A stretch of 64,000 bases of DNA from Leptogorgia sarmentosa. Its lineage: Eukaryota. Positions 892-58,808 of this stretch are shown piece after piece; the first letter of the stretch is position 1; each line of letters starts with the position of its first letter. The position numbers and the translations under genes were made by a program. Location of the stretch: assembly GCA_964658305.1 (NCBI GenBank), contig OZ210885.1:24242001-24306000 (forward strand), given 5' to 3'. Under the pieces are notes generated by a model. It ran no database searches. It saw only the letters and a program-made list of their open reading frames with translations, and was not told where the DNA came from.

Positions 892-1425
892 TAAATACAC
901 GTTATTTATCTAGTCCTTGTAACACTTGCATCAACATTTGTATAGTTATTTTGTTTAAATATTTTTATCACTTCTTTGTAATGTTTAGCTGACCATGCAA
1001 CTACAGTATGTGATACCTTGAAAATACAAAATGACAGCAGAATGGCATGTATGATCACCCCAACTTATGTTGTATAGCCAGAAAACCCAATTCACTTCCT
1101 GCCAACAAAACCAAAATGGATCCTTTTACAGTCAAATCAAACAGTTTTAAACAATTTATTCATCACATAAATTGTATGAACTTGAAAGTAATTAGCAATA
1201 ACAAAATATTAACTAAACTATGTATCAGAATAGTGTTAATCATCCCCAGAATGAACAGATGGAGTATGGCACCATTAACTATACCGATCATAATGTATAG
1301 TCTTTATATTAACAAATTGGTTAACAACAAAACTACCAGTTTGACCACATCTTTACAGATTTTTTTAGCTCAGTAAACAATGAATAGTACTTTTTCAACA
1401 AAGTCTATAGATGTGTGTCATATTT

Positions 1426-2867: not shown

Positions 2868-5800
2868 CAGGGTTGCCAGATTGTGAACAAAGTTCATAGT
2901 TCTATGAACTTTTCCTTTTATTTTTTCAATTTTGTGAAGATATATATTTTTGTGAGCATTCTATGAACTTTCTTAAAAAATATGAACATTTCATGAACTA
3001 GTCACTTTCAAACGTTTTTACGTCGCTTATCTGAGCAGTATTAAGAAATAGTGGAGGAAATGAAGATAAGCTAGCGAGTAAAAGAAATAGAGGATTCCTA
3101 GATCGACTAAGATCGTTTAGTTTGATAGTTTTCCAATTTCCATGCTCCTAAGGTCGTTCGGGCAATCTTTGCCAAGTATCGCTTCATCGGAACATTACGC
3201 AACGTCGCGAATCGCGATTTTGAATAATTGAATTTTCAATTTTATCACTTTCACAATATGAATTATTGAAAACTGGAAAGTAAGGCCTATTTATAAAAAG
3301 TCTAATTTATATCGATATTATGATAAATGGAGTCAGACTCGGACAGTGATGAAGAAGTGAACCAGCCCAAGAGAGCTAGGGTAAAATTTTGAATAAGTTA
3401 CATCATATAAATATTTTAATATTTAATATTAAAATAATATTGTTAAAACAAACAAAATTACCAAAAGTAGGATAAAAATATTCAAAATAGTGTTTTGTGT
3501 TTTTGTACTCATTTGTACTGATAACATTCAGACATTTAAGCACAAACAGTAAACCAAAACAACAAGCAACGAAAATAGATTATGTTATCGTATATTGAAA
3601 TACATGTATAGCTAGTAATACATACATTACACAGCAAGGAAGAGTTTTACTACACAACGATAGAGTAAGAATTAACATTTGTTACAGTTATATATAGTAA
3701 TACTCTGCTGTTTAGTGTACGTTTTGACTTTTGATAATGGAACAGATATTTTGTATTGCATATTATAGCAATCCAATCAGACAAGCGCAACACCAAAGTC
3801 AAAATATTATAAACAAAAGTACCATAAAGCGTGGGAAAAGGATTCCTTGTTTAAAGGATGGTTACTACCGGTGGAAAAGAAACCGGACAAGGCATACTGC
3901 AAAGTCTGCAAAAGAGAACTTGCAGCGGTTGTGACCACATTAAAAAAGCACTCTGAAACAACTTACCACAAGGAAAAAGTTAGTCTCCTTGTGGATCCTA
4001 AATTGAAACGAATTGAATCAATGCTAGTTGAAACTTCTTGCGGTGACAGTGTACGTGATGCAGAGATGCGAATTGCTGCATTCGTCTGCGAACACAATTT
4101 ATCTTTGAAAATCATGGATCACTTTAGTGATCTTTTACCCAGGCTTTGCCCGATTCAAAGATAGCAGCTCAGTTCCAGTCAAAACGGACAAAAACCAAAT
4201 GCGTTGTCCAAAATGTATTATCAAGTGCCAACTCTATAATTTGGTAGAAGTTCCACAAGCTAATGCAGAAACGTTATTCAATGTACTTTTGAAGGCGTTT
4301 GATGATCACAACATTCCTATTGATAATATAATTGGGTATGCGTCTGATACCACGAATGTTATGTTTGGCCAGTTCAACAGCGTTGTTTCTTGCCTGAAAG
4401 AAAAGCTTCCCAATATTTTTATAATGCGTTGTATTTGTCATACCGCTCACTTGTGTGCATCACATGCCTGTGAAAAGCTTCCTAGAACAGCTGAAGAGCT
4501 AATACATGACATTTGCAACTATTTTTGGCACAGTGCCAAGCGACAGGAGCAGTAACCTCACAGATTACTTCGCCCCTGCCAAACAAGATGGCTTTCTCTG
4601 CACTCCTGCGTAGCTAGATTAATCGAGCAATGGGATGCACTTATGGAATACTTTAAAGCAGTTGCAGTTGTTGATAAACTGTTAGCCTCAAACAAGATCT
4701 TATCCATGCTGCAGAATCCCATTTCGAAATTATATTTCTATTTCCTCGACTTCATGCTGCCAAGATTCACGCAGCTCAATGTGATGTTTCAAAGCGCTAA
4801 GACATCTGTGCATTGCCTTCACAAAGGTCTTCATTCAATCTACAGAGAATTCCTCAGCTGCTATTTATCAGATGCCTACTGGAGACACATGCCACTAAAG
4901 GATATTGATCCTACCAGTAAAGTTAATTTCTTACCCTTGCAAAAAATGTATATGGGTGCTATGATAACCTTGTGTCTTGCAAAAGAAGAATATAAACAAA
5001 AACCAGGAGATGTCCACCACTTCTTGAAATGTGCGCAAGAATTTTTTATGGAAGCAGTTTCTCAGATTAAGAGCCGCTTTCCGATTGGCGACCCTGTAAT
5101 TGAAATGCTTGAAGTTTTAGACCCTTCTGTAGACCATGCAAAATTCCCCTCATTGGTCCCCCTTGCTGCACTTTTTCCTAATCTGGTACCACAGTGTAAG
5201 CTTCAACAACTTGATGACGAATGACGTAGACTTTCTATAAGCACCTTGCCATTTGAAAGTGAAGATATGGCGCCCGAAGAATTCTGGGGAAGAATTGGCA
5301 ACATCACAGATGGCACGGAAACACCACAGTTTCCTTTTCTATCCGATTTCATGCAGAATCTACTTTGTCTTCCCCATGCAAATGTTGATGTGGAAAGAGT
5401 TTTTTCCTCCTTATGTGCAATCAAAACCAAGGCAAGAAATAGATTGCACACAAAGTCCGTCTGCGCCATTTTGAAAGTAAAGCAGGGAGTGAAAGAGTCA
5501 GGAGGTTGTGTGAAGTTTTCTCCTTCCATCGAAGCCAAACAACGAATGACATCCAACATTCTCTATGCCACGGATTCGGACAGCGAATCTCATTCCGATT
5601 AACTTGCTGGTGTTGACAATGAAAACTTACTGGTATCTCCTAGCATGTTGTATTGTGTTATAAGTTACGAAATTATAACATTGCGGTTATTTAATTGCCC
5701 GTTTTTTGTTCATTCATAATTAAGTAACAAATCGGAAATCCTAATTAGTATTTGATAATTCATTCAAATTTTTCTAGAAATAAATCTATGTATTACCAAT

Positions 5801-5977: not shown

Positions 5978-8900
5978 GATGGGACAAAGAAATAGAAAAT
6001 AGAAAATTTGCTTTGTTTTTAAACACTTCTAAAGTAAATATAAAATGTAATGATTTTAAACAAGAATTAAAACAAATTAAGTTAAAATGAAAACAAAACT
6101 ATAAATATTCAATAAAATAGAAAAATATATAAGAATTTTTAATGTCTCTCGTGGGACACCATAGTAGAGAAAACATTTGGTTTAGATGCCTGTGTTATTA
6201 CAGAACATAATTTAGTTCAACAGTTGATGATATACACCGTTTTTCATCACCAGATAACTACTGGGTCTTTGACCTAGAACGAGCAGTAAAGCGGTATGTA
6301 AACCAATCAACAAATCATCGTAATATTGAAAAAAAGTACAGTGACAGTGAAACAAGGTGATAGTACAATGTTTGGGAACAAATCCAAATTCTAATAAATA
6401 CACGTTATTTATCTAGTCCTTGTAACACTTGCATCAACATTTGTATAGTTATTTTGTTTAAATATTTTTATCACTTCTTTGTAATGTTTAGCTGACCATG
6501 CAACTACAGTATGTGATACCTTGAAAATACAAAATGACAGCAGAATGGCATGTATGATCACCCCAACTTATGTTGTATAGCCAGAAAACCCAATTTACTT
6601 CCTGCCAACAAAACCAAAATGGATCCTTTTACAGTCAAATCAAACAGTTTTAAACAATTTATTCATCACATAAATTGTATGAACTTGAAAGTAATTAGCA
6701 ATAACAAAATATTAACTAAACTATGTATCAGAATAGTGTTAATCATCCCCAGAATGAACAGATGGAGTATGGCACCATTAACTATACCGATCATAATGTA
6801 TAGTCTTTATATTAACAAATTGGTTAACAACAAAACTACCAGTTTGACCACATCTTTACAGATTTTTTTAGCTCAGTAAACAATGAATAGTACTTTTTCA
6901 ACAAAGTCTATAGATGTGTGTCATATTTCTACAAAACATTACTATGTTCTTCCAATTTAAGTTCTTTGCAGTAGATATTACAACGGTGCTGCTCCAAAAA
7001 CAACTCTATAGCATCTTGTGACAAATTCCCAATACAAAAATTGAGTTTGTTTCCCTCACCATCATTACTCACAAGGTCGGCACTTGCAATTTCAGGGTCA
7101 CATAATTGGTAGCCTATGCCTTGTATGTCAACCAACAAAAATTTACCTTTACCCGGTGTTGACAATGAAAACTTACTGGTATCTCCTAGCATGTTGTATT
7201 GTGTTATAAGTTACGAAATTATAACATTGCGGTTATTTAATTGCCCGTTTTTTGTTCATTCATAATTAAGTAACAAATCGGAAATCCTAATTAGTATTTG
7301 ATAATTCATTCAAATTTTTCTAGAAATAAATCTATGTATTACCAATATGAATAATGAGTGAAAAATGGCACACCTCCGGACACACTCCAGTAAAAAAAAT
7401 GTGATAATATGAAAAATGATCTTACTTGATACCGCTGACCAGTTCTGTGAACATTCATTGATTTTTTGTGAACTTTTGAGCATGCGCAGCATGAACATTT
7501 AAAAAATCTATCTGGCAACCCTGGATGGGACATAGAAATAGAAAATTTGCTTTGTTTTTAAACACTTCTAAAGTAAATATAAAATGTAATGATTTTAAAC
7601 AAGAATTAAAACAAATTAAGTTAAAATGAAAACAAAACTATAAATATTCAATAAAATAGAAAAATATATAAGAATTTTTAATGTCTCTCGTGGGACACCA
7701 TAGTAGAGAAAACATTTGGTTTAGATGCCTGTGTTATTACAGAACATAATTTAGTTCAACAGTTGATGATATACACCGTTTTTCATCACCAGATAACTAC
7801 TGGGTCTTTGACCTAGAACGAGCAGTAAAGCGGTATGTAAACCAATCAACAAATCATCGTAATATTGAAAAAAAGTACAGTGACAGTGAAACAAGGTGAT
7901 AGTACAATGTTTGGGAACAAATCCAAATTCTAATAAATACACGTTATTTATCTAGTCCTTGTAACACTTGCATCAACATTTGTATAGTTATTTTGTTTAA
8001 ATATTTTTATCACTTCTTTGTAATGTTTAGCTGACCATGCAACTACAGTATGTGATACCTTGAAAATACAAAATGACAGCAGAATGGCATGTATGATCAC
8101 CCCAACTTATGTTGTATAGCCAGAAAACCCAATTTACTTCCTGCCAACAAAACCAAAATGGATCCTTTTACAGTCAAATCAAACAGTTTTAAACAATTTA
8201 TTCATCACATAAATTGTATGAACTTGAAAGTAATTAGCAATAACAAAATATTAACTAAACTATGTATCAGAATAGTGTTAATCATCCCCAGAATGAACAG
8301 ATGGAGTATGGCACCATTAACTATACCGATCATAATGTATAGTCTTTATATTAACAAATTGGTTAACAACAAAACTACCAGTTTGACCACATCTTTACAG
8401 ATTTTTTTAGCTCAGTAAACAATGAATAGTACTTTTTCAACAAAGTCTATAGATGTGTGTCATATTTCTACAAAACATTACTATGTTCTTCCAATTTAAG
8501 TTCTTTGCAGTAGATATTACAACGGTGCTGCTCCAAAAACAACTCTATAGCATCTTGTGACAAATTCCCAATACAAAAATTGAGTTTGTTTCCCTCACCA
8601 TCATTACTCACAAGGTCGGCACTTGCAATTTCAGGGTCACATAATTGGTAGCCTATGCCTTGTATGTCAACCAACAAAAATTTACCTTTACCCGGTGTTG
8701 ACAATGAAAACTTACTGGTATCTCCTAGCATGTTGTATTGTGTTATAAGTTACGAAATTATAACATTGCGGTTATTTAATTGCCCGTTTTTTGTTCATTC
8801 ATAATTAAGTAACAAATCGGAAATCCTAATTAGTATTTGATAATTCATTCAAATTTTTCTAGAAATAAATCTATGTATTACCAATATGAATAATGAGTGA

Positions 8901-11257: not shown

Positions 11258-11789
11258 CTATTCAGTTCAATGAGCTGTACTAAACAGCAAGTTGTCTAGC
11301 CAGTCTAGGGACAGAATGCTATTAAATAGTAGGCTGTCTAGGACATTAATTAAGCTCTAAGGAATGGCACATTTTTGCATCATATTCGAACCATTGAAGT
11401 ATACTGTACTAGCAACCAGCAGAGCCTTTTCACCTCAAATTTTGTACAGTTGTGTAATGAATATTTGCTTTATTTTATAGCAGCTTTCTCTGTTTTACTT
11501 TGACATGTATTGATAACTATGTCAATGGAAATGACCTTATTGTCATGTTAATCATTGACATGCAAATATTTCACTATTTTGCAATAGCTACTGTTGCCAG
11601 GTTCCATTTTAGCCCTAGTACCAAGTTGGGGTAATAATTCCATGTTCTACATACACCAATATATAGCAGAGACCCTAAGTATCCATAGGGATACCGCCAT
11701 CACTAGTTATCCACAGTAATCCTACGTAACCCATAGCCATTTGCAGTTATTTATAGTCACCTACAGTCATTACCTGTCTTATCAGTCAT

Positions 11790-13385
11790 CCACTGTCCTT
11801 ACCAGTCATCTACCGTTATTTCCTGTCATCTACTGTCATACACTGTCATCTACTGTCATCTACTGTCATTCACTGTCATTCACTGTCATTCACTTTCATT
11901 CACTGTAATCTACCGTCATTCACCGTCATTCACTGTAATCTACCGTCATTCACTGTAATCTACCGTCATTCACCGTAATCTACTGTCATCCACTGTGATT
12001 CACTGTAATCTACCGTCATTCACTGTAATCTACTGTCATTCACTGTAATCTACCGTCATTCACTGTAATCTACCGTCATTCACTGTCATTGACCGTCATT
12101 CACTGTCATTCACTGTAATCTACCGTAATTCACCGTAATCTAGTGTCATTCACCGTCATTCACTGTAATCTACCATCTTTCACCGTAATCTACTGTCATT
12201 CACTGTAATCTACCGTCATTCACTGTCATTGACCGTCATTCACTGTCATTCACTGTAATCTACCGTCATTCACCGTAATCTACTGTCATTCACCGTAATT
12301 CACCGTCATTCACTGTCATTCACTGCAATCCACCGTCATTCACTGTCCTTTACCGTCATTCACTGTCATTCACTGTAATCTACCGTAATTCACTGTAATC
12401 TACCGTCATTCACCGTCATTGACCGTCATTCACTGTAATCTACCGTCATTCACTGTAATCTACCGTCATTCACCGTAATCTACTGTTATTCACCGTCATT
12501 CACCGTCATTCACTGTAATCTACCGTCATTCACCGTAATCTACTGTCATTCACCGTAATCTACTGTCATTCACCGTAATTCACCGTCATTCACTGTCATT
12601 CACCGTAATTCACCGTCATTCACTGTCATTCACTGCAATCTACCGTCATTCACTGTCATTGACCGTCATTCACTGTCATTCACTGTAATCTACCGTCATT
12701 CACTGTAATCTACCGTCATTCACTGTCATTGACCGTCATTCACTGTCATTCACTGTAATCTACCGTCATTCACTGTAATCTACCGTCATTTACTGTCATT
12801 GACCGTCATTCACTGTAATCTACCGTCATTCACCGTAATCTAGTGTCATTCACCGTCATTCACTGTAATCTACCGTCATTCACCGTAATCTACTGTCATT
12901 CACCGTCATTCACTGTAATTCACTGCAATCTACCGTCATTCACTGTCATTCACCGTCATTCACTGTCATTCACTGTAATCTACCGTCATTCACTGTAATC
13001 TACCGTCATTCACCGTAATCTACTGTCATTCACCGTAATCTACTGTCATTCACCGTCATTCACTGTAATCTACCGTCATTCACTGTAATCTACCGTCATT
13101 CACCGTAATCTACTGTCATTCACCGTAATTCACCGTCATTCACTGTCATTCACTGCAATCTACCGTCATTCACCGTCATTGACCGTCATTCACTGTAATC
13201 TACCGTCATTCTCTGTAATCTACCGTCATTCACTGTCATTGACCGTAATCTACTGTCATTCACCGTCATTGACCGTCATTCACTGTCATTCACTGTAATC
13301 TACCGTCATTCACCGTAATCTACTGTCATTCACTGTCATTTACTGTAATCTACCGTCATCCACTGTCATCTACTGTCATTTACTG
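11790..13385 (+). repeat. 10-bp satellite array (CACTGTCATT/TACCGTCATT/CACTGTAATC variants), left arm
   Basis: Directly visible 10-bp periodicity. Confidence 0.98.
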
Positions 13386-13702
13386 TACTTGGTTCTACCA
13401 ACCAATTACTGTCAAGGTATGTATCCGGGTATTTCTCTGAGTGTTGTATGTCGTGAATATTATTGAAATATCAAATACTTGTATTTTGATAATCTGGTCA
13501 TCATGAGTCATATGTTTAATTTTGTGTTGACTACAATTATATTTCAAGTTTTTTTGCTGTTGAGTAGCGGTGAAGCCATTAATGTTTCAGGCTACACTAA
13601 AGAGAAAATTGCTAAAGCCATCGAATTGTTCGTAAAGGGTGACCGTTTTGAAACATTGATAATTCGTGAATATCCATCTTCCTACTCGCAGGATTAAGTT
13701 CC

Positions 13703-15354: not shown

Positions 15355-18300
15355 ACTGAATGACAGTAGATGACAGTGAATGACGGTAGATTACAGTAGA
15401 TTACAGTAGATTACAGTGAATGACGGTAGATGACAGTGAATGACAGTGCATGACAGTGAATGACAGTAGATTACAGTGAATCACAGTAGATGACAGTGAA
15501 TGACAGTGAATGACAGTGAATGACAGTGAATGACAGTAGATTACAGTGAATCACAGTAGATGACAGTGAATGACAGTAGATTACAGTGAATGACGGTAGA
15601 TTACATGAATCACAATAGATGACAGTGAATCACAGTAGATTACAGTGAATGACGGCACATTACAGTAGATTACAGTAGATTACAGTGAATGACAGTGAAT
15701 GACAGTAGATTACGGTGAGTGACGGTAGATTACAGTGAATGACGGTCAATGACGGTGTATGACAGTAGATGACAGTAGATTACAGTGAATGACGGTAGAT
15801 GACAGTGAATGACAGTGAATGACAGAAGATTACAGTGAATGACGGTAGATTACAGTAGATTACAGTGAATGACGGTAGATTACAGTGAATGACAGTGAAT
15901 GACGGTCAATGACAGTGAATGACGGTAGATTACAGTGAATGACAATGAATGACGGTGAATGACGGTGAATGACAGTAGATTACGGTGAATGACGGTAGAT
16001 TACAGTGAATGACGGTAGATTACAGTGAATGACAGTGAATGACGGTGAATGACGGTGAATGACAGTGAATGACGGTAGATTGCAGTGAATGACGGTGAAT
16101 TACGGTGAATGACAGTAGATTACGATGAATGACGGTAGATTACAGTGAATGACGGTGAATGACACTAGATTACGGTGAATGACGGTAGATTACAGTGAAT
16201 GACAGTGAATGACGGTCAATGACGGTCAATGACAGTGAATGACGGTAGATTACAGTGAATGACGGTAGATTACAGTGAATGACAGTGAATGACGGTCAAT
16301 GACGGTGAATGACAGTAGATTACGGTCAATGACAGTAGATTACAGTGAATGACGGTAGATTACAGTGAATGACAGTGAATGACGGTCAATGACGGTGAAT
16401 GACAGTAGATTACGGTGAATGACGGTAGATTACAGAGAATGACGGTAGATTACAGTGAATGACGGTCAATGACGGTGAATGACGGTAGATTGCAGTGAAT
16501 GACAGTGAATGACGGTGAATTACGGTGAATGACAGTAGATTACGGTGAATGACGGTAGATTACAGTGAATGACAGTGAATGACGGTCAATGACAGTAAAT
16601 GACGGTAGATTACAGTGAATGACAGTGAATGACGGTCAATGACAGTGAATGACGGTAGATTACAGTGAATGACGGTAGATTACAGTGAATGACAGTGAAT
16701 GACGGTCAATGACAGTGAATGACGGTAGATTGCAGTGAATGACAGTGAATGACGGTGAATTACGGTGAATTACGGTGAATAACAGTAGATTACGGTGAAT
16801 GACGGTAGATTACAGTGAATGACAGTGAATGACGGTCAATGACAGTAGATTACGGTGAATGACGGTAGATTACAGTGAATGACGGTAGATTACAGTGAAT
16901 GACGGTGAATGACGGTCAATGACAGTAGATTACGGTGAATGACGGTAGATTACAGTGAATGACGGTAGATTACAGTGAATGACGGTCAATGACGGTGAAT
17001 GACGGTAGATTGCAGTGAATGACAGTGAATGACGGTGAATTACGGTGAATGACAGTAGATTACGGTGAATGACGGTAGATTACAGTGAATGACAGTGAAT
17101 GACGGTCAATGACAGTGAATGACGGTAGATTACAGTGAATGACAGTGAATGACGGTGAATGACAGTAGATTACGGTGAATGACGGTAGATTACAGTGAAT
17201 GACGGTAGATTACAGTGAATGACAGTGAATGACGGTGAATGACGGTGAATAACAGTGAATGACGGTAGATTGCAGTGAATTACAGTGAATGACGGTGAAT
17301 GACAGTAGATTACGGTGAATGACGGTAGATTACAGTGAATGACGGTGAATGACACTAGATTACGGTGAATGACGGTAGATTACGGTGAATGACGGTAGAT
17401 TACAGTGAATGACAGTGAATGACGGTCAATGACGGTGAATGACAGTAGATTACGGTCAATGACAGTGAATGACGGTGAATTACGGTGAATGACAGTAGAT
17501 TACGGTGAATGACGGTAGATTACAGTGAATGACGGTCAATGACAGTAAATGACGGTAGATTACAGTGAATGACGGTAGATTACAGTGAATGACAGTGAAT
17601 GACGGTCAATGACAGTGAATGACGGTAGATTACAGTGAATGACAGTGAATGACGGTCAATGACAGTGAATGACGGTAGATTGCAGTGAATGACAGTGAAT
17701 AACAGTAGATTACGGTGAATGACGGTAGATTACAGTGAATGACAGTGAATGACGGTCAATGACAGTAGATTACGGTGAATGACGGTAGATTACAGTGAAT
17801 GACGGTAGATTACGGTGAATGACAGTGAATGACGGTAGATTGCAGTGAATGACAGTGAATGACGGTGAATTACGGTGAATGACAGTAGATTACGGTGAAT
17901 GACGGTAGATTACAGTGAATGACGGTAGATTACAGTGAATGACAGTGAATGACGGTCAATGACAGTGAATGACGGTAAATTACAGTGAATGACAGTGAAT
18001 GACGGTGAATGACGGTGAATGACAGTAGATTACGGTGAATGACGGTAGATTACACTGAATTACGGTAGATTACAGTGAATGACAGTGAATGACAGTGAAT
18101 GACGGTAGATTACAGTGAATGACAGTAGATTACAGTGAATGACGGTAGATTACAGTGAATGACAGTGAATGACAGTAGATTACGGTGAATGACGGTAGAT
18201 TACAGTGAATGACGGTGAATGACACTAGATTACGGTGAATGACGGTAGATTACGGTGAATGACGGTAGATTACAGTGAATGACAGTGAATGACGGTCAAT

Positions 18301-19170
18301 GACGGTGAATGACAGTAGATTACGGTCAATGACAGTGAATGACGGTGAATTACGGTGAATGACAGTAGATTACGGTGAATGACGGTAGATTACAGTGAAT
18401 GACGGTCAATGACAGTAAATGACGGTAGATTACAGTGAATGACGGTAGATTACAGTGAATGACAGTGAATGACGGTCAATGACAGTGAATGACGGTAGAT
18501 TACAGTGAATGACAGTGAATGACGGTCAATGACAGTGAATGACGGTAGATTGCAGTGAATGACAGTGAATAACAGTAGATTACGGTGAATGACGGTAGAT
18601 TACAGTGAATGACAGTGAATGACGGTCAATGACAGTAGATTACGGTGAATGACGGTAGATTACAGTGAATGACGGTAGATTACGGTGAATGACAGTGAAT
18701 GACGGTAGATTGCAGTGAATGACAGTGAATGACGGTGAATTACGGTGAATGACAGTAGATTACGGTGAATGACGGTAGATTACAGTGAATGACGGTAGAT
18801 TACAGTGAATGACAGTGAATGACGGTCAATGACAGTGAATGACGGTAAATTACAGTGAATGACAGTGAATGACGGTGAATGACGGTGAATGACAGTAGAT
18901 TACGGTGAATGACGGTAGATTACACTGAATTACGGTAGATTACAGTGAATGACAGTGAATGACAGTGAATGACGGTAGATTACAGTGAATGACAGTAGAT
19001 TACAGTGAATGACGGTAGATTACAGTGAATGACAGTGAATGACAGTAGATTACGGTGAATGACGGTAGATTACAGTGAATGACGGTAGATTACAGTGAAT
19101 GACGGTAGATTACAGTGAATGACGGTGAATGACGGTAGATTACAGTGAATGACAGTGAATGACAGTAGAT
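15355..19170 (-). repeat. 10-bp satellite array, right arm (reverse complement of left arm)
   Basis: GACAGTGAAT/GACGGTAGAT/TACAGTGAAT units. Confidence 0.98.
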
Positions 19171-47424: not shown

Positions 47425-50400
47425 TGGAAGGGAGGAATTAATTCGAGATACTGAACAGTATCGGGAGGAATTAATTCGAGATTCTTTTATCAATGGCTTA
47501 CTATCCCCATTAATTCGTCAGCGTCTTCTGGAGAACAGTACGCTAGACTTAAAATCTGCTTTTGACCAAGCTAATGCTTTAGATTTAGCACAGAAAAACG
47601 CGGAAACGTATACTATGCCTACTATTCCTGCAGTCACAACGGCATCTGTTTCAGTGACCGAACCGACCTTGAAATCTGCTGCTTCGGATGACGATGCCCC
47701 TCTTGCCGGAACATTTACATCAAAGAAATGCTTCTTTTGTGGGAATTCAATCCATAATAGAAGAAGTTGTCCTGCCCGAAATTGTGTATGTGATAATTGT
47801 GGTAAAAAGGGGCATTATGCAAAAGTTTGCAGGTCAAAAGCTTCTACGGTTGCTTCAATATTTTCGCCTTCACTTTGTGCAATCGTGGCTTCTTGTCCAA
47901 AGTCTTTGAAACAAGCATCTGTAATGGTCTCTGTGGGAAAGAAAACGTTGACTGCACTTGTTGACTCTGGAAGTTCCGATAGCTATATAAATGGAGCATG
48001 ATCAAACACCTTGACCTTTGTATTCATCCATCAACGCAAGATGTATCTATGGCTCTAAGCTCCCTCAAGTCACATGCTGTTGGTCACTGCTATGTAGATA
48101 TTGTTTTGAATGAACAGGTGTACCCATCCTGTCGTCTCCGGATACTTAAAGATCTTTGTAGCGATATAATCCTGGGACAGGACTTCCAAAAACAGCACAA
48201 GAGTGTTATTATCAAATATGGTGGTCCCAAACCAGAGCTATTAATTCCGAAGTCCACTCCTGTTTGTGCACTCTCTGCTGCATCAGTTGAAGAGCCATCT
48301 CTTTTTGCGAATCTTCGCCCCGACTGCAAACCCATTGCAAGTAAATCGCGACATTTTTGCAGGGAAGACCAAGATTTTATACAACAGGAAGTTAATCAGC
48401 TTCTCTCAGAAGGGATAATTGAACCCAGCAATTCACCTTGGAGAGCACAGGTTGTTGTTGTTAAAGATTCGTTGAATAGACATAAGAAGCGGCTCTGCAT
48501 AGACTATTCACAGACGATTAATCAATATACTGAGCTTGACGCCTATCCTCTACCACGGATTGATGACATGATTAACAAACTTGCTGGCTATAAAATTTTT
48601 TCAACTTTTGATCTTAAAAGTGCCTACCATCAAGTGCCAATAAAGGAAACTGATCAGAGATATACTGCATTTGAAGCTAATGGAAGACTCTATCACTTCC
48701 GACGCATACCTTTTGGGGTTACAAATGGAGTAGCAGCCTTTCAAAGGGCAATGGATAAGTTTGTCGATGAGGAGGGACTCAAAGACACCTTTCCATATTT
48801 GGACAATATAACAGTCGCTGGGCGGGATCAAGAAAAGCATGATGAAAATGTCCAGAAGTTTTATGAAGCCATCCATCGAAGGAATTTTACACTTAATGAA
48901 ACGAAGTCTGTGGAATCCAAGACATCTATAAATTTACTTGGAAAATTTACTTGGATATGGAATTGGACATGGGGTAATTACTCCCGATCCAGAAAGGCTA
49001 CGCCCCCTCCAAGAGTTTCCACCACCAGAGAATGCTCGAACCCTTCAGAGAGTAGTTGGCATGTTCGCCTATTATGCAAAATGGATACCCCATTTTTCTG
49101 ACAAAATCAAACCTTTACTGAAGGCTACCACATTCCCACTGGACCCAAACGCCCTAGCTGCATTCAATACCCTCAAGAAAGAACTTGAGAATGCAGCTCT
49201 TCAACATATTGACGAGAGCCTTCCATTTGTGGTTGAATGCGATGCTTCGGAAGTGGCGCTTTCTGCGACATTAAATCAAGCTGGTCGACCTGTGGCATTC
49301 ATGACGAGGATGCTCCACGGTAGTGAATTACACTATCCTGCGGTAGAGAAGGAAGCAATGGCTATCGTAAAAGCGGTTCGCAAGTGGCAGCATTTTCTTG
49401 CTCGTCGTCACTTTACTCTGAAAACGGATCAACGTTCGGTAGCGTTTATGTTTGACAGTCGAAAGCGTACCAAGATAAAAAACAATAAGATCCAGGCTTG
49501 GCGACTTGAGCTTGGTTCCTTTAGCTACACAGTGGAATATCGGCCTGGAAAGAATAATGTTGCTCCTGATTCATTCACACGCGCATTCTCTGCCTCGATG
49601 TCATCAAACAACCTTGAAGAAATCCATATTGGGTTGTGTCATCCCGGTGTAACTCGAATGTTGCACTTCGTCAAGTCAAAGAACCTTCCATATTCCACTG
49701 AAGAAGTTAAGAAAGTATGTTCAGCATGTCGAAGCTGTGCCGAATTGAAGCCTCAGTTTTATCGTCCGCCGCAATCTGGGAACCTCATTAAAGCCACACA
49801 GCCTATGGAGCGACTTAGTATAGACTTCAAGGGACCACTACCTACTGCTACTCGTAATGCATATATCCTCACTGTTGTAGATGAGTATTCCCGTTTCCCA
49901 TTCGCGTTTCCATGCCCAAATATGCAGTCCTCCACCGTCATCAAGTGCCTGGATCAAATATTTACTCTTTGTGGCATACCGAATTATATTCATTCAGATC
50001 TGGGTACCTCATTCATTTCGCGAGAACTAAAGGATTATTTGACAAAACGAGGAATTGCAACGAGTAGGACTACGCCGTATCATCCAAATGGTAATGGTCA
50101 AGTTGAGAGATATAACGGTATCAAAGGCAGTTGGTCTTGCTCTAAGATCAGCTAATCTCCCAGAGTCAAGCTGGGAACTCGTGCTCGCTGATGCTCTTCA
50201 CTCGATTAGATCACTTCTCTGTACGTCAACTAATGCAACTCCACATGAAAGGTTTTTTAACTTTCATCGTAGCTCATCATCTGGTGTGTCTTTGCCATCA
50301 TGGATGCAACCTGGTCCCGTATTGCTACGCCGATTTGTGCGAATGAGTAAGAACGACCCACTTGTCGATGAAGTGGAATTAACAGATGTTAACCCAACCT

Positions 50401-50678
50401 ATGCACGTGTACGTTACACTGATGGGAGAGAATCATCTGTTTCTCTGCGTGATCTGGCTCCTTGCCCGGCTCCTGCCCCCTCTGAACCTCAACATCTGCA
50501 ATCTCAGCGTTCAACTTCACCTACAGTTGATAGATTACCTATAGCGCAAAACTCTACGACCCCGCAAGTTCCTGACCAGTTGGAAGTGGATAACGTTGAA
50601 CACGAACCGCCAATTGAAGGAACTGGTTTAAGGCGTTCTACTCGCGTGAGCAGACCACCAGCTCGTTACGGTTGGTAG
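47425..50678 (+). pseudogene. gag-pol polyprotein with three frameshifts
   Basis: CFFC..H..CPAR..C..CGKKGH; RT SPW, LCIDY, FDLKSAYHQ, YLDN; RNase H CDASE; integrase HPG, IDFKGP, HSD, GQVER; frameshifts ~48000, ~48940 (short duplication), ~50120. Confidence 0.92.
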
Positions 50679-50838
50679 GTTTGTAGAGTAGGAACGTTGT
50701 AAATTAACTATACAATTTGAACCTTATTATTAGTTAGTATTTATATATGACAATTATTATTAATTATAGAATTTAACAGTATTATTAATGTAAATTATTT
50801 GGAATTTTCTATTGTTTAGAACTTCTAGGGAGGAAGAA

Positions 50839-51034
50839 TGAGATAATAACTATTGGTTACATGAAGGACTTAGGCATGACTTATGAGCCAGCAATTATGT
50901 AACATATATAAGTCAGTGACTGTCCGCCATTTTGTTTATTTTTCTTTTGAGTTTATATAGTAAGGTTTTAAGTTGAATAAAGCCTAATTTTATTTAGTTT
51001 TATAATTATGGTTTTGACAATGGTATACAATAAC
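50839..51034 (+). repeat. Gypsy 3' LTR
   Basis: Starts TG after the PPT; TATATAA and AATAAA inside; 3' end approximate. Confidence 0.7.
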
Positions 51035-51825
51035 TTCTGAGGATTGGAAATAGCACGCTGTACCCAAGCACCCTATACCCATGTCTGAGAAAAAGCACCC
51101 CATATAACCGAGTATTCTTCCCAATAATATTTCTGCGTGATTTTTTGCACAAACATTTCTTTCAGTGAATGCAATAACATATTTCAATTTCAAATTCATA
51201 CGACCAAAATTTGTTTGTCTTCAAAAATGAGTGATTTCTAGTATTTATTTATTTAAAAATTTATTAGCATGACCTAAGTTTACAGGTATTGCCAAAGTAG
51301 TGGCACTATCTATGTAAATAAGTAAGATAGTAATAACAGAACAGAACGGAACGTAGGAAAATGAAAGATATTAGTGTGGTTAATTATATTATGACTACTG
51401 AGTAGTTCATAAATCGTTTTTTCTAGTAGTCTATAGCTACGTAGATTAACCTGTTGGTAATGACAAACCATGCGTTATTAAAGAGTAACCGATTTGTTGT
51501 TGCGCTAACGATTTCCAGTCAAACCGTTCCAAACATAAATACACACGCAAATGAACAACACTCGCACGCATGACGTGATGGTAGCTTCCAAACAACAGTA
51601 TTTGAACTAAAACATTGAAATAGCGAAATTATTAACATTCATTAAACGCATAAAGCGACATACTCACCAGTACAATACTCGACGTTGATCACAGGAAAGA
51701 GGAAGCGAGACCTTCTAACAATATAAATAAAACAAATTGTAATTGTATTTGCAAAGCATCCGGCAATCAATATCCTTTGTTGTTGCACTAATTAATCTAT
51801 GCAAATTTATTCTTGTGCAGTATTA

Positions 51826-51843
51826 TGTGAAGTATTACTCACG
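51826..51843 (+). promoter_or_regulatory. Putative rolling-circle origin: nonamer AAGTATTAC in a short stem-loop
   Basis: TGTGA-AGTATTAC-TCACG; nonamer 51830-51838 fits the CRESS NANTATTAC consensus; 63 bp upstream of the rep ATG on the same strand. Confidence 0.55.
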
Positions 51844-51901
51844 CAGACTTTATGACTATTTTCGAATTGTCGTTTAACATTTATAGCTAGTAATATTTAT
51901 C

Positions 51902-53257
51902 ATGTCTGAGACAGAATTAAAAGATCCATGCTCAGGAAGGCGCCAATATCTCATAACCTACTCTCAAGCTGATGAGCAGAAGTTCCCAACGAGAGAAAGT
52001 GTTGGCAATATGCTGGAAACTGAATTCAACGCTGGAAATAGTCAAGTAAAGGTTTCACACTGGGCCTGCTGTAAAGAAGCCCATGAAGAAAATGGCTTCC
52101 ATTATCACTGTTGCTTGAAGCTGACTGGAGTTAAAAAGTGGTCAGGCGTCAAGAAGGCTATCACGAAGAAGTATGGCATAGTGGTTAACTTCTCGGACCA
52201 TGATCAATATATTTATGCGTACTGTTATGTCTGCAAAGCTGATAGGAATGTTGCCCACAGCGAAAATCATCCTGATCTTTCACAAGTAGGATCTCCGCGC
52301 ACTAAAGCTTCAACTTCAGCTCTGCGAGAAGCTTCTAGAAAAAGAAAGTCAGCAACAAATTTCAACGAGGAGTCCACACTCCGTGAAAAAAACAAACGAA
52401 AAAGACGTCTAAGCAACCTTGAAGTTGCAGATTTTATTGTTGCCAAAAATATAACCACAGTAGAACAGATATTTGCTAAGGCTGAAGCCAGAAAGCAGGA
52501 GGGTGAAAGCGACTTGGCCAATTTCTTGTTTTCGCGAACCCAGAAATCCATTGAAGAGCTTATCAAGAAGTCGTGGATGTTAAAGCAAGCGTCATCCGAA
52601 ATACAGCGAGACGACACTACCAGAATTGAGAAAGTAAGGAATGCGGCGATAAACGCCTGCGTCGATGGGTGCAACGGTAGTTGGCTCGAGGGTGCCCTAG
52701 AAGTGCTGTCGCTGAATGGAATGGAAGCGGCTGTCTTTGCCTCGTATATATTTGAACTTCTTGCTCAAGGTAGGGGAAAGTTCAGAAATGTAATGATTTA
52801 TGGTCAAACCAACTGCGCGAAAACGTTCATGCTGAAACCACTGAAGTGTATCTTTGGCGATAGATTGTTTGACAATCCTGCAAATGACAAGTACGCTTGG
52901 GTTGGTGCCGACAAGGCAGACATGATCCTCTTGCAAGACTTCCGTTTCTGCAAAGACGTCATAACATGGAAAGATCTCCTTCTCCTTCTCGAAGGGGAAA
53001 CGGTCAAGCTACCGGCCCCAAAAAACCATTTTGCTACTGATGTTGTGATATCTTCAGATGTCCCAATTTTTGCAACCTCAAAAGCACCCATAGTGTTCAA
53101 AGGGCCTTACAATGTGGAAGACGAGTGTGAGACAGAGATGATGAACAGTCGCTGGAAAATGATCCGATTCAAACATGCATTCGAAGAGAAGGATCAAAAG
53201 AAGGTAGAGCCATGTGGTAGTTGTTTTGCTAGGCTTGTACTAATGGTGAAGAAGTGA
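51902..53257 (+). CDS. rep: CRESS-virus-like replication initiator: HUH endonuclease + superfamily 3 helicase (intact, 451 aa)
   Basis: Motif I YLITYS, motif II HYHCCL, motif III YVCK; Walker A GQTNCAKT, Walker B ILLQDF, motif C IFATS, Arg finger NSRW; intronless. Confidence 0.9.
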   Translation: MSETELKDPCSGRRQYLITYSQADEQKFPTRESVGNMLETEFNAGNSQVKVSHWACCKEAHEENGFHYHCCLKLTGVKKWSGVKKAITKKYGIVVNFSDHDQYIYAYCYVCKADRNVAHSENHPDLSQVGSPRTKASTSALREASRKRKSATNFNEESTLREKNKRKRRLSNLEVADFIVAKNITTVEQIFAKAEARKQEGESDLANFLFSRTQKSIEELIKKSWMLKQASSEIQRDDTTRIEKVRNAAINACVDGCNGSWLEGALEVLSLNGMEAAVFASYIFELLAQGRGKFRNVMIYGQTNCAKTFMLKPLKCIFGDRLFDNPANDKYAWVGADKADMILLQDFRFCKDVITWKDLLLLLEGETVKLPAPKNHFATDVVISSDVPIFATSKAPIVFKGPYNVEDECETEMMNSRWKMIRFKHAFEEKDQKKVEPCGSCFARLVLMVKK

Positions 53258-53372
53258 TTATAAAACCCGGTTAAAAATGTTACTGCGTACATTACAGTCT
53301 TGGCCTGTTGTGGACCAATTTAGGTTGTGACGCTAGAGTTGTGTTAGACTAAAAAAGTCCCTTGATATATTC

Positions 53373-53601
53373 ACGAGTTACCCATGGGTTACCGTTAGTA
53401 GCGATGTGATTTTTAGTATGCTATAAGAGTTACCACGAGTTACCAATATTGATATCTAAAAAAAATGATAACAATTTTTTTTTCATTTCTACTGGTAACT
53501 CGTGGTAACTTGTTACAGTATCATAAAAACCCTATTAATCTTAACGGTAACTCATTGGGTAACTTGTTGGTAACTCGTTGGGTAACTTGTTGGTAACTCG
53601 T
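53373..53601. repeat. Imperfect long inverted repeat rich in (G)AGTTACC units
   Basis: Arm 53373-53445 aligns to the reverse complement of 53493-53601. Confidence 0.8.
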
Positions 53602-53717
53602 CGTTTGAATGCACTAGTGTTTATTGAAATAATAATGTGCATGAAATTTACATTGCAATTCAGTTGATTCGAAATGTCACAATTACTATACAATTAAAAA
53701 AAATTCAATGATGATAA

Positions 53718-54828
53718 TTAGTATTTTATACGCTGTCCTTTTGACTTAATTACCATGTCAATACGTCGGTCCATGGATGCAATTGTTTTATCAATAATTT
53801 CTGGCAAATAGTTGAGCAAAGTTTTTTTTGACGCGAGCACAAAATTGCGAAAATGTCTCTTTGGTAATTCGCTTGCTCAGTGCATCATCTTGCAATTGCC
53901 TCTTAACATTGTGAAAAATGTTCTCAATTGGATTCAGGTCTGGACTTCGAGCAGGAATGGTAAACTTTTTCGCACCCACTGCAGAAATTGCTTCTTGTGC
54001 TTTTCGGCTGTTTTGGCTTGGGTCGCCATCTTGCAAAAAAAGCGTACCTTTCTCGTTACTACTATTTTCGAACAGTGTCGGAAATTGTTCGCGTACAAAA
54101 TCGGCAAATTTTTGACCATTCAAGTGGCCTTCGTATTGCTCAGCAAGAATAACACCCTTATTGTAAGCTATAGCGACGATAAAATTTGCCGTTCGTCCAC
54201 CACTGCCTTCGTGCGAGCCTTTAGACGTTTGATTAAAACTGAGACCATCAGAGGGTTTCCGCCAAGCCATAGTTCGTGGTGCTAACGACTGATCGTGAGG
54301 GTTATATTTGTGCGTAAAGCCAACACCGTCCAAATAAAATGAAACACCTTTTGTCCACACACTTGGATCTAATCTCTTACGAACTAGCTTCGCAAATTTG
54401 AGCCGAATTTCTAAATCTCTTCTGCTAAGCACCCCCTTTTTACGCGAATGTGTGTATTTGAAGCCATTTGCCCTAAGAACTCGTCTAATTGTTTCGTCTG
54501 AAATATCTGCACATATGCCAGCAAAAACCTTGAGTCACTTGGTTGTAAAATACCCGTAATCTCTGTGCAGTATCTCAACTTGTCTCATAATATTGCGTTT
54601 ATCCCGTTCTGATAGTTTTTGAGGTCGCCCTTTGTTGTGCTTTCTTTTGTCCACAATAGGATCGTCGATTTTTCGTCTCATATGTCTGCAAATAGTAGCT
54701 TTGGAGTACTTCTTATAATCCTTCATACTGGCTATTTCTTTCCATGTTTTCATTTTATCTTGATGGAGGTAGCGCCAATGAAGGGATGCAGCGAAAGGAA
54801 CTCGTTCGCGTTTTTTCGTTGGGTTCAT
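53718..54828 (-). pseudogene. Atypical Tc1/IS630-like DDE transposase (one stop, one frameshift)
   Basis: GRPQKLS HTH linker, SDETIRRVL, FYLDG, FLQDGDPSQ, SPDLNPIEN, C-terminus SMDRRIDMVIKSKGQRIKY*; in-frame TGA at 54535-54537, frameshift in T-run ~53825. Confidence 0.88.
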
Positions 54829-55705
54829 TTTCCTAAGTTATATGTATCATTTTAAAATTCCTTTCAGCTTTTAATCATCGGCTTTATATTAATATATCAT
54901 GTAATTTTGGTAACTAAACATGTATATGGTATAAAAAATTGCGCGTTTGTTCTTTCGAGGTGTCCTCTACATTATTAAAAATGCAACATTTGCAAAAGTA
55001 TACCTAGACCTACAAACGTATATTTAGACCTACAAACGTTTCCCTTCTTACCTACTCACTTAAAGGTGACATGAACCGATTTTGCTAAAACACAAATTCG
55101 GTTAGCATTATGCTCATGAACATGTAAATCAGTAGGAAATTTAAGAAGAAGCACACGATAGTCATATAAATCATGTATTTACGCCTTTACTTTTATCAAT
55201 CGTTTGATCCGCATTATGCGCGGCCATGATTGCATAATTCAATACGTGTGACGTCAATTTGTTTGCACCTTCACCTGATCATCGTGCTGCAATATGGAGG
55301 CCAGTCCAGCAACTAGAAGAGGCGGTCGATATTGTGTCGCTGAGACACCGCAAAAACGTAGTTGTAAAAATACATCTTACACAGAGGGAATAAAAATGCA
55401 TTCCTTTCCAAAAGATCCAGAAATACGGCAAAAATGGGTGAGGTTTGTGCAGCGACACAGTGTGGATTTCAAGAAGCCAACTAAACACGCATCGCTTTGC
55501 TCGGCACATTTTGAAGAATCCTGCTATCTACGGCGATTATCCCCAGACAGTTCATGCTATCGAGTTCTGGAGAAAGGATCAATCCCTACAAAGGATACAT
55601 CATTTCTCGAAGAAAGCCCAAAAGACCTGACGGAGCGTGAAAAGCGAAAGGCTAAATAAAAATGCTGATTACCATTTTTGACGCTATTAAATTTTAATTT
55701 AAATA

Positions 55706-55888
55706 CAGGGTGAGTAAAAAAAAGTGATGGCCTTTGTTATTCAAATTTGTTGCGAGTTACTTGTTGTCGAAATTTGACAATGCAAATTTCTATAGTTTTA
55801 TCAATTAACGACAGCTAGTAAACCCCACAGGTAATTACATTTGCGTTTTTACATACCTAAAAGCATCACACTTTTTTGACTCACCCTG
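55706..55888. mobile_element. Tc1/mariner MITE in Kolobok intron
   Basis: TA-CAGGGTGAGT...ACTCACCCTG-TA. Confidence 0.88.
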
Positions 55889-56825
55889 TATATTGAAGCA
55901 AAAATGCTACTTGAAAACTCAATTTTGAAATTTTATTTTGTTTGAATTTACAGATACTACGTGATTTAATTGCGAGGAGGCCCTGCAAATTGAGAAAACT
56001 AGACGAACCAGTCTCAGAAATGAGTCTAGAAAGTACTAGTAATACTCACTGTTATCGAGAATAAACTCAATCACAATGACATTGAATGTGGTAGCGTAAA
56101 GGCTGACTCGCCGTTGGAACTTTCTTCCAGTCCAATGCCAATGGACATTGAACTTTCAAATCCCATGGAACGTTCTTCAAATCTGGTACGAAGTATTGGT
56201 ACTAGTACTTCAACTGATTCTCTTGTGGATTTCAAGTCAAAGTACCACTGTAAGTTAAATGAATGCAAGCTTCTTCGGAGGAGAATAAGAAGAATGAAGA
56301 GTAAACGTCGACACAATGAAAAGGTACTACATATTATTATCTACAAACAGTACCTGACTGTTTATATATGAAAATTAAACGGTATTGTCTTTTTTCAATC
56401 ATTTGAAGGAAATCTCATGTCCAAGCCAAGACATACCTGATGGTCAAACAGACGGCTGTGAAGACCAAGACGAATATGGTGATAGTGATGAAAATGAAGA
56501 GTGGAGTGACCTAGAAGCCTTGCCCGAATGTGAGACTGATAGTGATAGCCTTGGAGATGATACATTGTATGAGGATTGTACAAGTGATGATTGTACAAGT
56601 GATGAGGAAAAAGAACCTGATACAAATCGAAGTTTCAAGTAAGTTTACTCACTAATATTAATGAGTTGAAAAATATTTGTGGTTTATATGGCTACATCAT
56701 AATAGTTCCCTTGTCTTTTAGATCCCTAGAGATTGGTTGTACTTGTACAACATGATTGTACATTGTAATAGTGTGCTGAATTGTTCCACCTTTCTTTTTA
56801 GAGTCACAGCTGGCACACCAGTATA

Positions 56826-57638
56826 CAGGGTGTATAAAAAAAAACGCAATCCTACGTTCAAATGCAATTTTCATAACGAAAAGTATTAGAAAATAGGCTA
56901 TATTTACCACCGTTAGAAAGCTCTATCATTCCGCTTTCTTAAGACTGCTTGTTTGTTAAATTTGAGTTGGAAATGAGCGAGTAATCATATTTTTAGTAAG
57001 TGTGATTGGACAATTTAAAATTTGAGATAGCTTGAATTTATTAAAAATTTAACTTTAGTTGGTTACAATCATTCAACGTGGCCTGGCTTTCTTACCACAC
57101 ACAAATCACTTCGACGTTGCATTTCCCGTGCAACTCTTCTTATTAGTTCATGATTTCCATGTAAAGCATCTGCTTCAAGCTGTATCTGCCGGTATTTAAG
57201 TACGTTACGCCAAACGGTCGTCGAATTTGGGACTTGTCGATCCGGGAAAGCTATTCGAAACAATCTTAAAACTTCCTGAATACTTTTTGTTACAAAGTAA
57301 CCTTCAACAATAAAAGTTATTTCTGCTGTAGTGAGCTGTGGCATGATGCCTAAGACTTTAAAATTATTTCGCGAAAATATTTCAAACAAAATATTCGCAT
57401 GCAACGATAACGTCCCCTTCGGAATTAAGAACGTCGAATTAGAAGCATCTAAAAATTACTGCTTGCAGTAAATCACTTATTTTGAAGTCCTAAATGGCCT
57501 AAAAAGTCATAATCAACCACTTATTGAGTAGAAAAAAGATAGGGCTAAAACATGAACTAAAAGTTAAGACATGGAAATCTATATTATTTTGGTTATAAAG
57601 CCTTAAACTTGGATTGCGTTTTTTTTTTATACACCCTG
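56826..57638 (-). mobile_element. Internally deleted mariner-like element
   Basis: TA-CAGGGTGTATAAAAAAAAACGCAATCC TIRs; ORF 57069-57344 fuses a DUF4817-like HTH N-terminus directly to the C-terminal RR..LC...GHVE*. Confidence 0.9.
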
Positions 57639-58808
57639 TACAAAGAACCATCATTTCTGGTGTTTTACAGTATGCTCCTCCAAATATTTACACTGTTCTG
57701 TTTTAAATGCAAGAATGACAGCCCAAAGATCAGCATGAAGCAGAATGGGACTATGGTGACTATTTTTCAACATTGCAGTAATTGTGGAAAGAATTCATTT
57801 GTATGGCGATCACAGCCTTTTGTTTTTGGTCAGCATCCACTTGGAAACCTGTTGCTAAGCTATTCAATCTTGGTTGCTGGAGCAACCATAAAGAAAGTTC
57901 AGCTTGTATTTCAACATATGGGACTACTTATATATTCCACAAGGACATTTTTTACTCACCAACGAAAATTCTTGTTCCCTGTAATTCTAAGCTATTGGAG
58001 AAATTACCAGCAAAGTCTCCTTTCTCAAATTAAAGGACTAAAAGAACCATTGTGGAGTGGTGATGGAAGATTTGACTCCATGGGCCACTCAGCTAAGTAT
58101 GGAACATATAGCATGTTTTCTAATGATCTCTCAAAGATTGTTCATTTTGAAGTTGTTCGGGTAATTATGTGTGCTGTGTGCATGTATTTTTATATTTGGA
58201 CCTGCTGTACTTTATACATTTTTGTATAACATTGTAATGGAGCATAACCATTCCTAATTTATCAGTGATGGGGATGCCCTCTTTTGCACCAATACAATTT
58301 TCAGTGACAGCCCCAGTACCACAGATTTTGCATACATATTTATGTAATACTATTTCTATCTCCCCTTCTTGGTCTTCACAAAGTCAACATTCCCACCCCC
58401 AATTTTTCCAGTGTAGAATGTCTGCCCCACACATAAGTCATGGATGGATTTTCTGGGGAGGGGGCATGCACTTCACCCCCCTAGTTTTTTTTACACCCCC
58501 GAAAAAGTTAAAAATCAGATAAAGGCCATAAGCTTTGTGTACATGGTCTAAAGAGGAAAACATATTTTATATCAGAGTTCAAAAAATTCAGGAGGTGCAT
58601 GCATTCATCCTGAAATTTAGCCCCCGAGCAAATTCTGAAAATCTGTCATTACTTAAGTTGTTTAATTAAGAAATGTTCAGTTCTTGACTATTTTTTTAAA
58701 AAACCTTCTAGTCCAATGAAACTGGTGGCAGTACCCAAATGGAGCTGGAAGGAGCAAAAAGATGCTTTTCATTTATTCAAGAGAAGGCCAAATTATCTAT
58801 CCCTGTTT

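What the first reader, a model, noticed from the sequence alone, without database searches (positions are those of the whole stretch)
51826..55040. Candidate hybrid element: CRESS-type Rep-helicase paired with a Tc1-like DDE transposase instead of a capsid
Seen: an intact intronless HUH+SF3 Rep, convergent with a nearly intact Tc1-like transposase only ~460 bp away. There is no capsid ORF and no recognisable Tc1 TIR/TA boundary pair around the transposase. Known: HUH+SF3 Reps define CRESS DNA viruses, Helitrons use SF1/PIF1 helicases, and Replitrons lack a helicase. The transposase is also unusual (FYLDG first Asp, long insert before the second Asp). Inference: a single element that amplifies by rolling circle and integrates by DDE transposition. 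I know of no described family with this architecture.
Basis: partly seen in the sequence, partly recalled or inferred. Interest (0 to 1): 0.9.

Follow-up and report, generated by a model that had tools for sequence, protein, structure and literature searches.

The report
Composite transposon pairing Rep with Tc1
This is a decayed copy of a widespread marine-invertebrate jumping element that carries a virus-type replication protein and a cut-and-paste transposase; its relatives end in a short repeated module, and it likely copies itself with the first enzyme and inserts itself with the second.

Summary
The pairing is real. Of 52 relative loci, 18 of the 19 long enough to tell carry the same DD34E transposase in the same orientation, and most share the ~230-bp palindrome after the Rep gene.

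Relatives reveal the ends that the window copy has lost: a 171-434 bp module (B) with ~26-bp inverted termini (5'-CAAT...ATTG-3'). B's left end follows the transposase after AGA (12 loci) or non-element DNA after CTA (4 loci); jellyfish contigs show the right end joined to TAG, and B excised. The inferred element is TA-B-rep-palindrome-transposase-B-TA, with multimers or circles sharing one B. This is KolobokP architecture with different enzymes.

The Rep folds like AAV Rep68, parvovirus NS1 or papillomavirus E1 rather than CRESS Reps. No capsid gene or conserved nonanucleotide was found. The transposase 'insert' is only 4-9 residues.

Rep-driven amplification and free circles are inferred, not shown, and no single contig holds both host junctions. 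The scan noted this gene pair twice before on other DNA (e1-7140875, e1-9746370). Ten paper searches found no description; Repbase could not be searched.

The parts
51902..53257 (+). HUH endonuclease + helical bundle + superfamily 3 helicase (Rep), 451 aa, intact frame
   Evidence: motifs; model, pLDDT 89; fold matches AAV2 Rep68, E1, NS1
53373..53601 (.). Palindrome A: outer and inner short repeats mirrored around an AT-rich core; candidate origin (function inferred)
   Evidence: z -8.9; same layout after Rep in 19 of 24 segments tested
53718..54828 (-). Tc1-type DD34E transposase gene, broken by an in-frame stop at 54535-54537 and a frameshift near the 3' end
   Evidence: intact relatives match Pfam HTH_Tnp_Tc3_2 or DDE_3, SB100X, Mos1 fold
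51030..55059 (.). Largest possible surviving internal segment (INT) of the element; both terminal B modules are absent; the limits of the non-coding arms are inferred
   Evidence: no B motif at either end of the segment; bounded by the two insertions below
50839..51029 (+). Neighbour, not part: probable 3' LTR of a Gypsy-like retroelement (ORFs 47615-50678) that cuts off the left arm; no 5' LTR partner in the window
   Evidence: LTR limits read from sequence (purine tract, TG...CA)
55060..58229 (+). Neighbour, not part: THAP-bearing DNA transposon starting at TTAA that cuts off the right arm (Kolobok-like by recalled signature); its other end was not found

Best explanation
The window holds the decayed internal part of a composite-like DNA transposon whose full form is inferred to be TA-B-rep-palindrome-transposase-B-TA, and which likely inserts by its Tc1-type DD34E transposase and likely multiplies by its own HUH-SF3 Rep. 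Shown: (1) the two genes and palindrome A travel together in a fixed order; (2) a 171-434 bp module B with inverted termini sits at the 5' side of both genes; (3) B's left end is found after host-like DNA ending CTA and after the transposase arm ending AGA; (4) B's right end is followed by TCT towards rep and, in jellyfish contigs, by TAG and other DNA; (5) B can be missing at its exact ends. Inferred: (6) the transposase pairs the outer ends of two B copies and inserts the whole unit at CTAG, duplicating TA, and can also excise or move a lone B; (7) Rep binds the repeats of palindrome A, nicks, unwinds and drives rolling-circle-type replication; (8) this yields (B-INT)n multimers or one-B circles, which supply fresh two-B substrates and offset the loss of units by solo-B excision.
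For: Linkage: 18 of 19 loci with room, or 15 of 16 after dropping near-duplicates L002, L015 and L051; the exception L034 is itself a left end with other DNA beyond B. Identical longest-contig lengths recur in the Rep and transposase hit lists, e.g. 393455, 814826, 31680, 30496, 15997. B's inner inverted motif occurs in 20 of 52 loci, against 2 hits in 2.8 Mb of shuffled DNA. Of 18 left ends, 13 follow AGA, 4 follow CTA and 1 starts a contig; of 17 right ends facing rep, 16 are followed by TCT (TA background 0.07). L011 and L047 are one family (96.7% over 1023 bp) with the same B left end after the transposase in one and after unrelated DNA in the other. In jellyfish runs, contig ends pile up at B's two boundaries with differing flanks, and one joint skips B. 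L052 has two 95%-identical B copies 6010 bp apart. One sea-cucumber gene model strings four Rep copies. L025, L027 and L032 close on themselves at 4061-4510 bp. Rep catalytic residues are near-invariant. Rep and transposase distances correlate (Spearman 0.50, p 0.0008, 11 loci; 0.41, p 0.015 with 9).
Against: No single contig shows both host junctions, so the TA duplication is assembled from separate left and right ends. The right junction rests only on loose ends of Logan contigs (2 contigs in each of 2 runs, agreement 0.63), which overlap B by ~30 bp and could be solo B. The window copy has neither B. Three of the four CTA ends have only 229-550 bp of flank. Deep branches of the Rep and transposase trees disagree, which suggests module swapping or poor resolution. 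Five of 24 segments lacked the palindrome within 400 bp after Rep (L005, L041, L043, L049, L052), and L016 has 1046 bp upstream without a B motif. Self-closing contigs cannot tell circles from collapsed tandem arrays. Nothing here tests Rep activity or places a nick site.
Confidence: 0.68

Rival explanations
1. Same structure, but Rep only nicks the chromosomal copy and triggers unequal crossover or local re-replication, as proposed for the KolobokP nuclease; no free circle exists.
For: L052 and the four-Rep gene model point to chromosomal multimers. KolobokP makes multimers without a replicase (PMC9587614 passages).
Against: A full SF3 helicase and an origin-like palindrome with mirrored repeats are kept across 40-90% divergence, more than a simple nickase needs.
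Confidence: 0.13
2. It is mainly a nuclear plasmid: a one-B circle kept by Rep, with chromosomal copies as occasional by-products of its transposase.
For: 13 of 18 left ends are the internal type. Whole 5.0-kb units assemble in one piece through B in two runs. Many homologues lie on ~4.1-4.6 kb contigs.
Against: Rep clusters have many members on contigs of 0.1-4.5 Mb. Collapsed tandem arrays give the same assemblies.
Confidence: 0.11
3. It is a satellite, or one segment of a multipartite DNA virus whose capsid is encoded elsewhere.
For: The Rep folds like parvoviral NS1 and AAV Rep. Repbase's DENSOV_HM from Hydra was called virus-like (PMC3198968 section 8).
Against: No relative in viral contigs with three queries. 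No conserved third ORF. TA-flanked transposon ends.
Confidence: 0.06
4. An endogenous viral Rep and an independent Tc1 element are chance neighbours in repeat-rich DNA.
For: The window is dense in unrelated transposons.
Against: Fixed linkage in 18 of 19 loci, shared palindrome, shared termini, correlated divergence.
Confidence: 0.02

Closest known systems
KolobokP composite-like DNA transposons (PMC9587614; abstract and passages read)
   Same: Internal region with a DDE transposase plus a second nuclease, between long terminal direct repeats that have their own short inverted ends; multimers and repeat-excised INT-INT junctions.
   Different: Here the transposase is Tc1-type DD34E with TA-flanked ends, the repeats are 171-434 bp instead of ~450 or ~660 bp, and the second enzyme is an HUH-SF3 replicase with an origin-like palindrome instead of a His-Me finger nuclease.
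Tc1/mariner transposons (SB100X, Mos1; ISY100 in PMC2170065, passages)
   Same: HTH plus DD34E transposase, ~26-bp TIRs reading CA...TG, TA next to the host-side ends.
   Different: The transposase gene is not between a single TIR pair; both TIRs sit back to back in module B, and the unit carries a Rep gene.
Geminivirus-like Rep plus transposase element of Tuber melanosporum (PMC3198968 section 8)
   Same: A viral-type Rep and transposase ORFs in one repeated element.
   Different: One fungal family with a geminivirus-like Rep, 37-bp TIRs and no obvious TSD; no direct-repeat module described.
Teratorn (PMC10175614 passages) and Polintons
   Same: DDE integration joined to a viral replication module; Teratorn's proposed origin uses a concatemer flanked by two transposon copies.
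   Different: Teratorn is a ~180-kb herpesvirus-piggyBac fusion; Polintons use a protein-primed polymerase. This unit is 4-6 kb with two genes.
Parvovirus NS1 / AAV Rep68 and papillomavirus E1; DENSOV_HM of Hydra
   Same: Best fold matches for the Rep; Pfam PPV_E1_C in 16 and Parvo_NS1 in 9 of 65 homologues. [quoted passage not shown]
   Different: No capsid gene; the palindrome is internal, not terminal; sequence identity is only 10-16%.

Membership tests
CRESS DNA viruses | Y1 HUH endonuclease fused to an SF3 helicase | tested here: met
CRESS DNA viruses | Capsid gene | tested here: not met
   longest Met-started ORF in the 5' intergenic stretch of 9 relative loci is 98 aa, none conserved; closed units show only the two genes
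CRESS DNA viruses | Conserved nonanucleotide origin (motif recalled) | tested here: not met
   1 and 3 of 28 upstream segments per strand, about 2 expected by chance
CRESS DNA viruses | Circular single-stranded genome in particles | not testable with these tools
   self-closing contigs only
Parvoviridae | NS1-like Rep | tested here: inconclusive
   fold match at 10-16% identity, shared with E1
Parvoviridae | Capsid gene and terminal hairpins | tested here: not met
   no capsid ORF; the palindrome is internal, between the genes
Helitrons | Y2 Rep fused to an SF1B helicase (PMC10288648) | tested here: not met
   SF3 fold, 451 aa
Replitrons | Rep without helicase (PMC10288648) | tested here: not met
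   helicase present and conserved
Tc1/mariner superfamily | HTH plus DD34E transposase | tested here: met
Tc1/mariner superfamily | TA at the host-side ends | tested here: met
   4 of 4 left ends joined to non-element DNA; right end; both ends never seen on one contig
Tc1/mariner superfamily | Single TIR pair enclosing only the transposase | tested here: not met
   both TIRs lie in module B, 5' of the transposase
KolobokP | Long terminal direct repeats with own inverted ends; multimers; repeat excision | tested here: met
   solo repeats with a TSD not demonstrated
KolobokP | Kolobok transposase and His-Me finger nuclease | tested here: not met
   Tc1-type transposase and HUH-SF3 Rep
DENSOV_HM (Repbase) | Sequence similarity to the Repbase entry | not testable with these tools
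   entry not held; only its tree label was seen

The most novel reading that the evidence does not exclude
A large undescribed class of self-replicating animal DNA transposons: a capsid-less, parvovirus-like replicon that cycles between a Rep-amplified one-repeat circle or concatemer and a Tc1-integrated, direct-repeat-flanked chromosomal form, a DNA-only counterpart of the LTR retrotransposon cycle.
Probability: 0.5. Interest if true: 0.92.

Novelty: new variant of a known kind. Interest (0 to 1): 0.8.

Why it matters
It would add a replicative route to Tc1/mariner, the textbook cut-and-paste superfamily, and give a clear case of a small-DNA-virus replicase turned into a transposon engine. 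The Rep family is large: 838 representatives at 50% clustering with E up to 1e-30, with named hits in an octocoral and a sea cucumber and a relative in jellyfish runs; the transposase link was checked only in the 52 fetched loci. It also makes testable an open question left by KolobokP, namely how composite-like eukaryotic transposons keep two terminal repeats, because here the suspected amplifying enzyme and its candidate origin are both in hand.

Tried and rejected
No host genome is held for the window, so its own copy number and ends could not be read. Rep scans of viral contigs and genome contigs, and tblastn of plasmids and phages, found nothing. A transposase scan of viral contigs found nothing; in genome contigs it gave 15 loci, 14 distant IS630-like and one close 1.8-kb contig (L053) too short to test linkage. 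A transposase-anchored linkage count in metagenomes was therefore not possible. Sequence search of the PDB with the Rep was blank. The ESM Atlas gave no answer. The 'longer' search found no Rep-transposase fusion, which is weak evidence.

Rejected ideas: (1) The inner CAACATTG pair as the TIRs: no TA beside it and contigs do not break there. (2) Palindrome A as a TIR-TIR junction: the chromosomal window copy runs through it and host junctions map to B. (3) The AAGTATTAC before the window's Rep as a CRESS origin: not conserved. (4) The L034 MACPF-Hint gene as cargo: it lies beyond a CTA junction, so it is more likely host flank. (5) L052 as a circle: its two B copies differ and the second is followed by unrelated DNA. 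(6) RNA-library presence as expression: whole units including non-coding DNA are covered, and DNA may be in those libraries. Contig depths were not used as copy numbers.

Full report
Observation. The window is repeat-rich animal-type DNA with no held genome. The Rep ORF (51902-53257, +, 451 aa) is intact. The transposase (54828-53718, -) has an in-frame stop and a late frameshift, and the two stops are 460 bp apart. A Gypsy-like element ends at about 51029 and a THAP-bearing transposon begins at TTAA 55060, so at most about 4.0 kb of the element survives.

The proteins. In 65 aligned Reps the HUH histidines, the YxxK motif, Walker A Gly and Lys, a Walker B Asp, an Arg finger and two CxxC-type pairs are conserved in 64 or 65 rows (motif names recalled). 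The model (pLDDT 89) matches AAV2 Rep68 over both domains (E 1.9e-12), then papillomavirus E1; in the viral library parvoviral NS1 and E1 lead and the first named CRESS Rep is rank 41. 'CRESS-type' is thus not the best label. The window Rep is 91% identical to a set of near-identical database copies. Transposases from relatives are 360-370 aa with DD34E spacing in 16 of 17 sequences scored (one DD34D) and 94-99 residues between the first two aspartates, against 90 counted for SB100X. They fold like Mos1 and Sleeping Beauty.

Linkage. One metagenome scan gave 52 Rep loci. Nineteen have at least 1.3 kb after or 2.6 kb before Rep, and 18 of them carry the transposase on the opposite strand; dropping three near-duplicates gives 15 of 16. 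One shorter-flanked locus (L037) has a fragment too. The palindrome follows Rep in 19 of 24 segments long enough to test, against 10 of 150 random windows, with a shared layout of mirrored short repeats around an AT-rich core. Rep and transposase distances correlate (0.50, p 0.0008 for 11 loci, four left out for short Rep stretches; 0.41, p 0.015 after removing one of each close pair), but deep branches disagree. No third conserved ORF was found.

The ends. An inner inverted motif (C-run, CAATGTTG, 18-113 bp spacer, CAACATTG, G-run) occurs in 20 of 52 loci and almost never in shuffles. Laying jellyfish-associated runs on L002 showed that contigs break not there but 100-250 bp further out, at 2446 and 2881, with differing flanks, and that one run has a joint skipping the whole piece. 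These points are the ends of module B, 171-434 bp long, with ~26-bp inverted termini starting CAAT or CAAC. Of 18 left ends, 12 have the transposase to the left and follow AGA, one more follows AGA, one starts its contig, and four (L013, L034, L047, L049) follow CTA and lead through B and TCT into rep. Of 17 right ends facing rep, 16 are followed by TCT. Ends were picked by pattern and by match to the partner end; one search's pattern presupposed GA/TC, one search's did not. L011 and L047 are the same family and show the same left end in both contexts, with homology stopping at the boundary. The host-side right end reads GATTG then TAG in two runs. Together these give TA-B-INT-B-TA and a CTAG target; that IS630 prefers CTAG is recalled, not confirmed. 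The limits are that both junctions were never seen on one contig and that solo B was not separated from composite right ends.

Multimers or circles. L025, L027 and L032 close on themselves at 4088, 4061 and 4510 bp with one B each. L052 has two B copies 95% alike and 6010 bp apart, followed by unrelated DNA, and a sea-cucumber gene model contains four Rep copies; both point to chromosomal tandem arrays. Rep clusters have many members on contigs of up to 4.5 Mb. Free circles are neither shown nor excluded.

Mechanism. Integration by the transposase at B's outer ends is strongly implied by the TA-flanked CA...TG termini and by the B-less joint. Because the transposase can also remove a single B, units would decay unless two-B substrates are regenerated. 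The conserved nickase-helicase and origin-like palindrome are the likely means, by rolling-circle-type amplification into (B-INT)n. This last step is inference from established HUH-SF3 biochemistry and was not tested. The role of B's inner motif is unexplained; inner transposase sites or a two-way promoter are possibilities.

Comparison and novelty. The architecture is that of KolobokP (PMC9587614, abstract and passages) with different enzymes. A Rep-plus-transposase element was reported once in Tuber, and DENSOV_HM of Hydra may share the Rep (PMC3198968: passages, section 8, supplement search and one part). Teratorn is the conceptual parallel (PMC10175614 passages). Helitron and Replitron definitions are from PMC10288648 passages. 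Passages of PMC13595969 and 10.64898/2026.04.17.719288 held nothing on this pairing. Ten searches found no description of a Tc1 plus HUH-SF3 element; subscription papers, Repbase and bioRxiv supplements were not searchable and may hold one. The scan's own notes record the gene pair on two other genomes; the lines shown to me do not mention the terminal module or the target site.

Verdict. A real, widespread and apparently undescribed group of composite-like Tc1 transposons with a parvovirus-like replicase; this copy is a truncated relic of it.

Noticed in passing
L034:1-1941: An open frame of at least 647 aa with MACPF (E 3.7e-12) and Hint (E 1.5e-38) domains lies just beyond the element's left junction; probably a host gene.
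   Followed up: partly
window 11785-13386 and 15357-19170: Two satellite arrays of related 20/50-bp units in opposite orientation, with strong mirrored GC skew.
   Followed up: no
window 47425-51029: Gypsy-like retroelement with frameshifted pol and a 3' LTR but no 5' LTR; a short duplication marks its truncated start.
   Followed up: partly
window 55060-58229: THAP-domain transposon starting at TTAA, with small CAGGGTG-ended inverted-repeat insertions at about 55703-55891 and 56824-57640.
   Followed up: no
L049, L050, L044: Internally deleted variants keep module B (L044 and L049 also palindrome A, duplicated in L049) while losing the 5' part of rep, as non-autonomous derivatives would.
   Followed up: partly
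L030:1752-1953, L033:1186-1478, L042:1323-1440, L010:4435-4514: Additional smaller palindromes between palindrome A and the transposase stop, differing among families.
   Followed up: no
window 1047-1376, 6550-6879, 8089-8418: Three near-identical copies of a repeat giving the same 109-aa frame.
   Followed up: no
L053: A close transposase relative with the palindrome repeats sits in a bacterial MAG on a 1.8-kb contig, probably a binning contaminant.
   Followed up: partly
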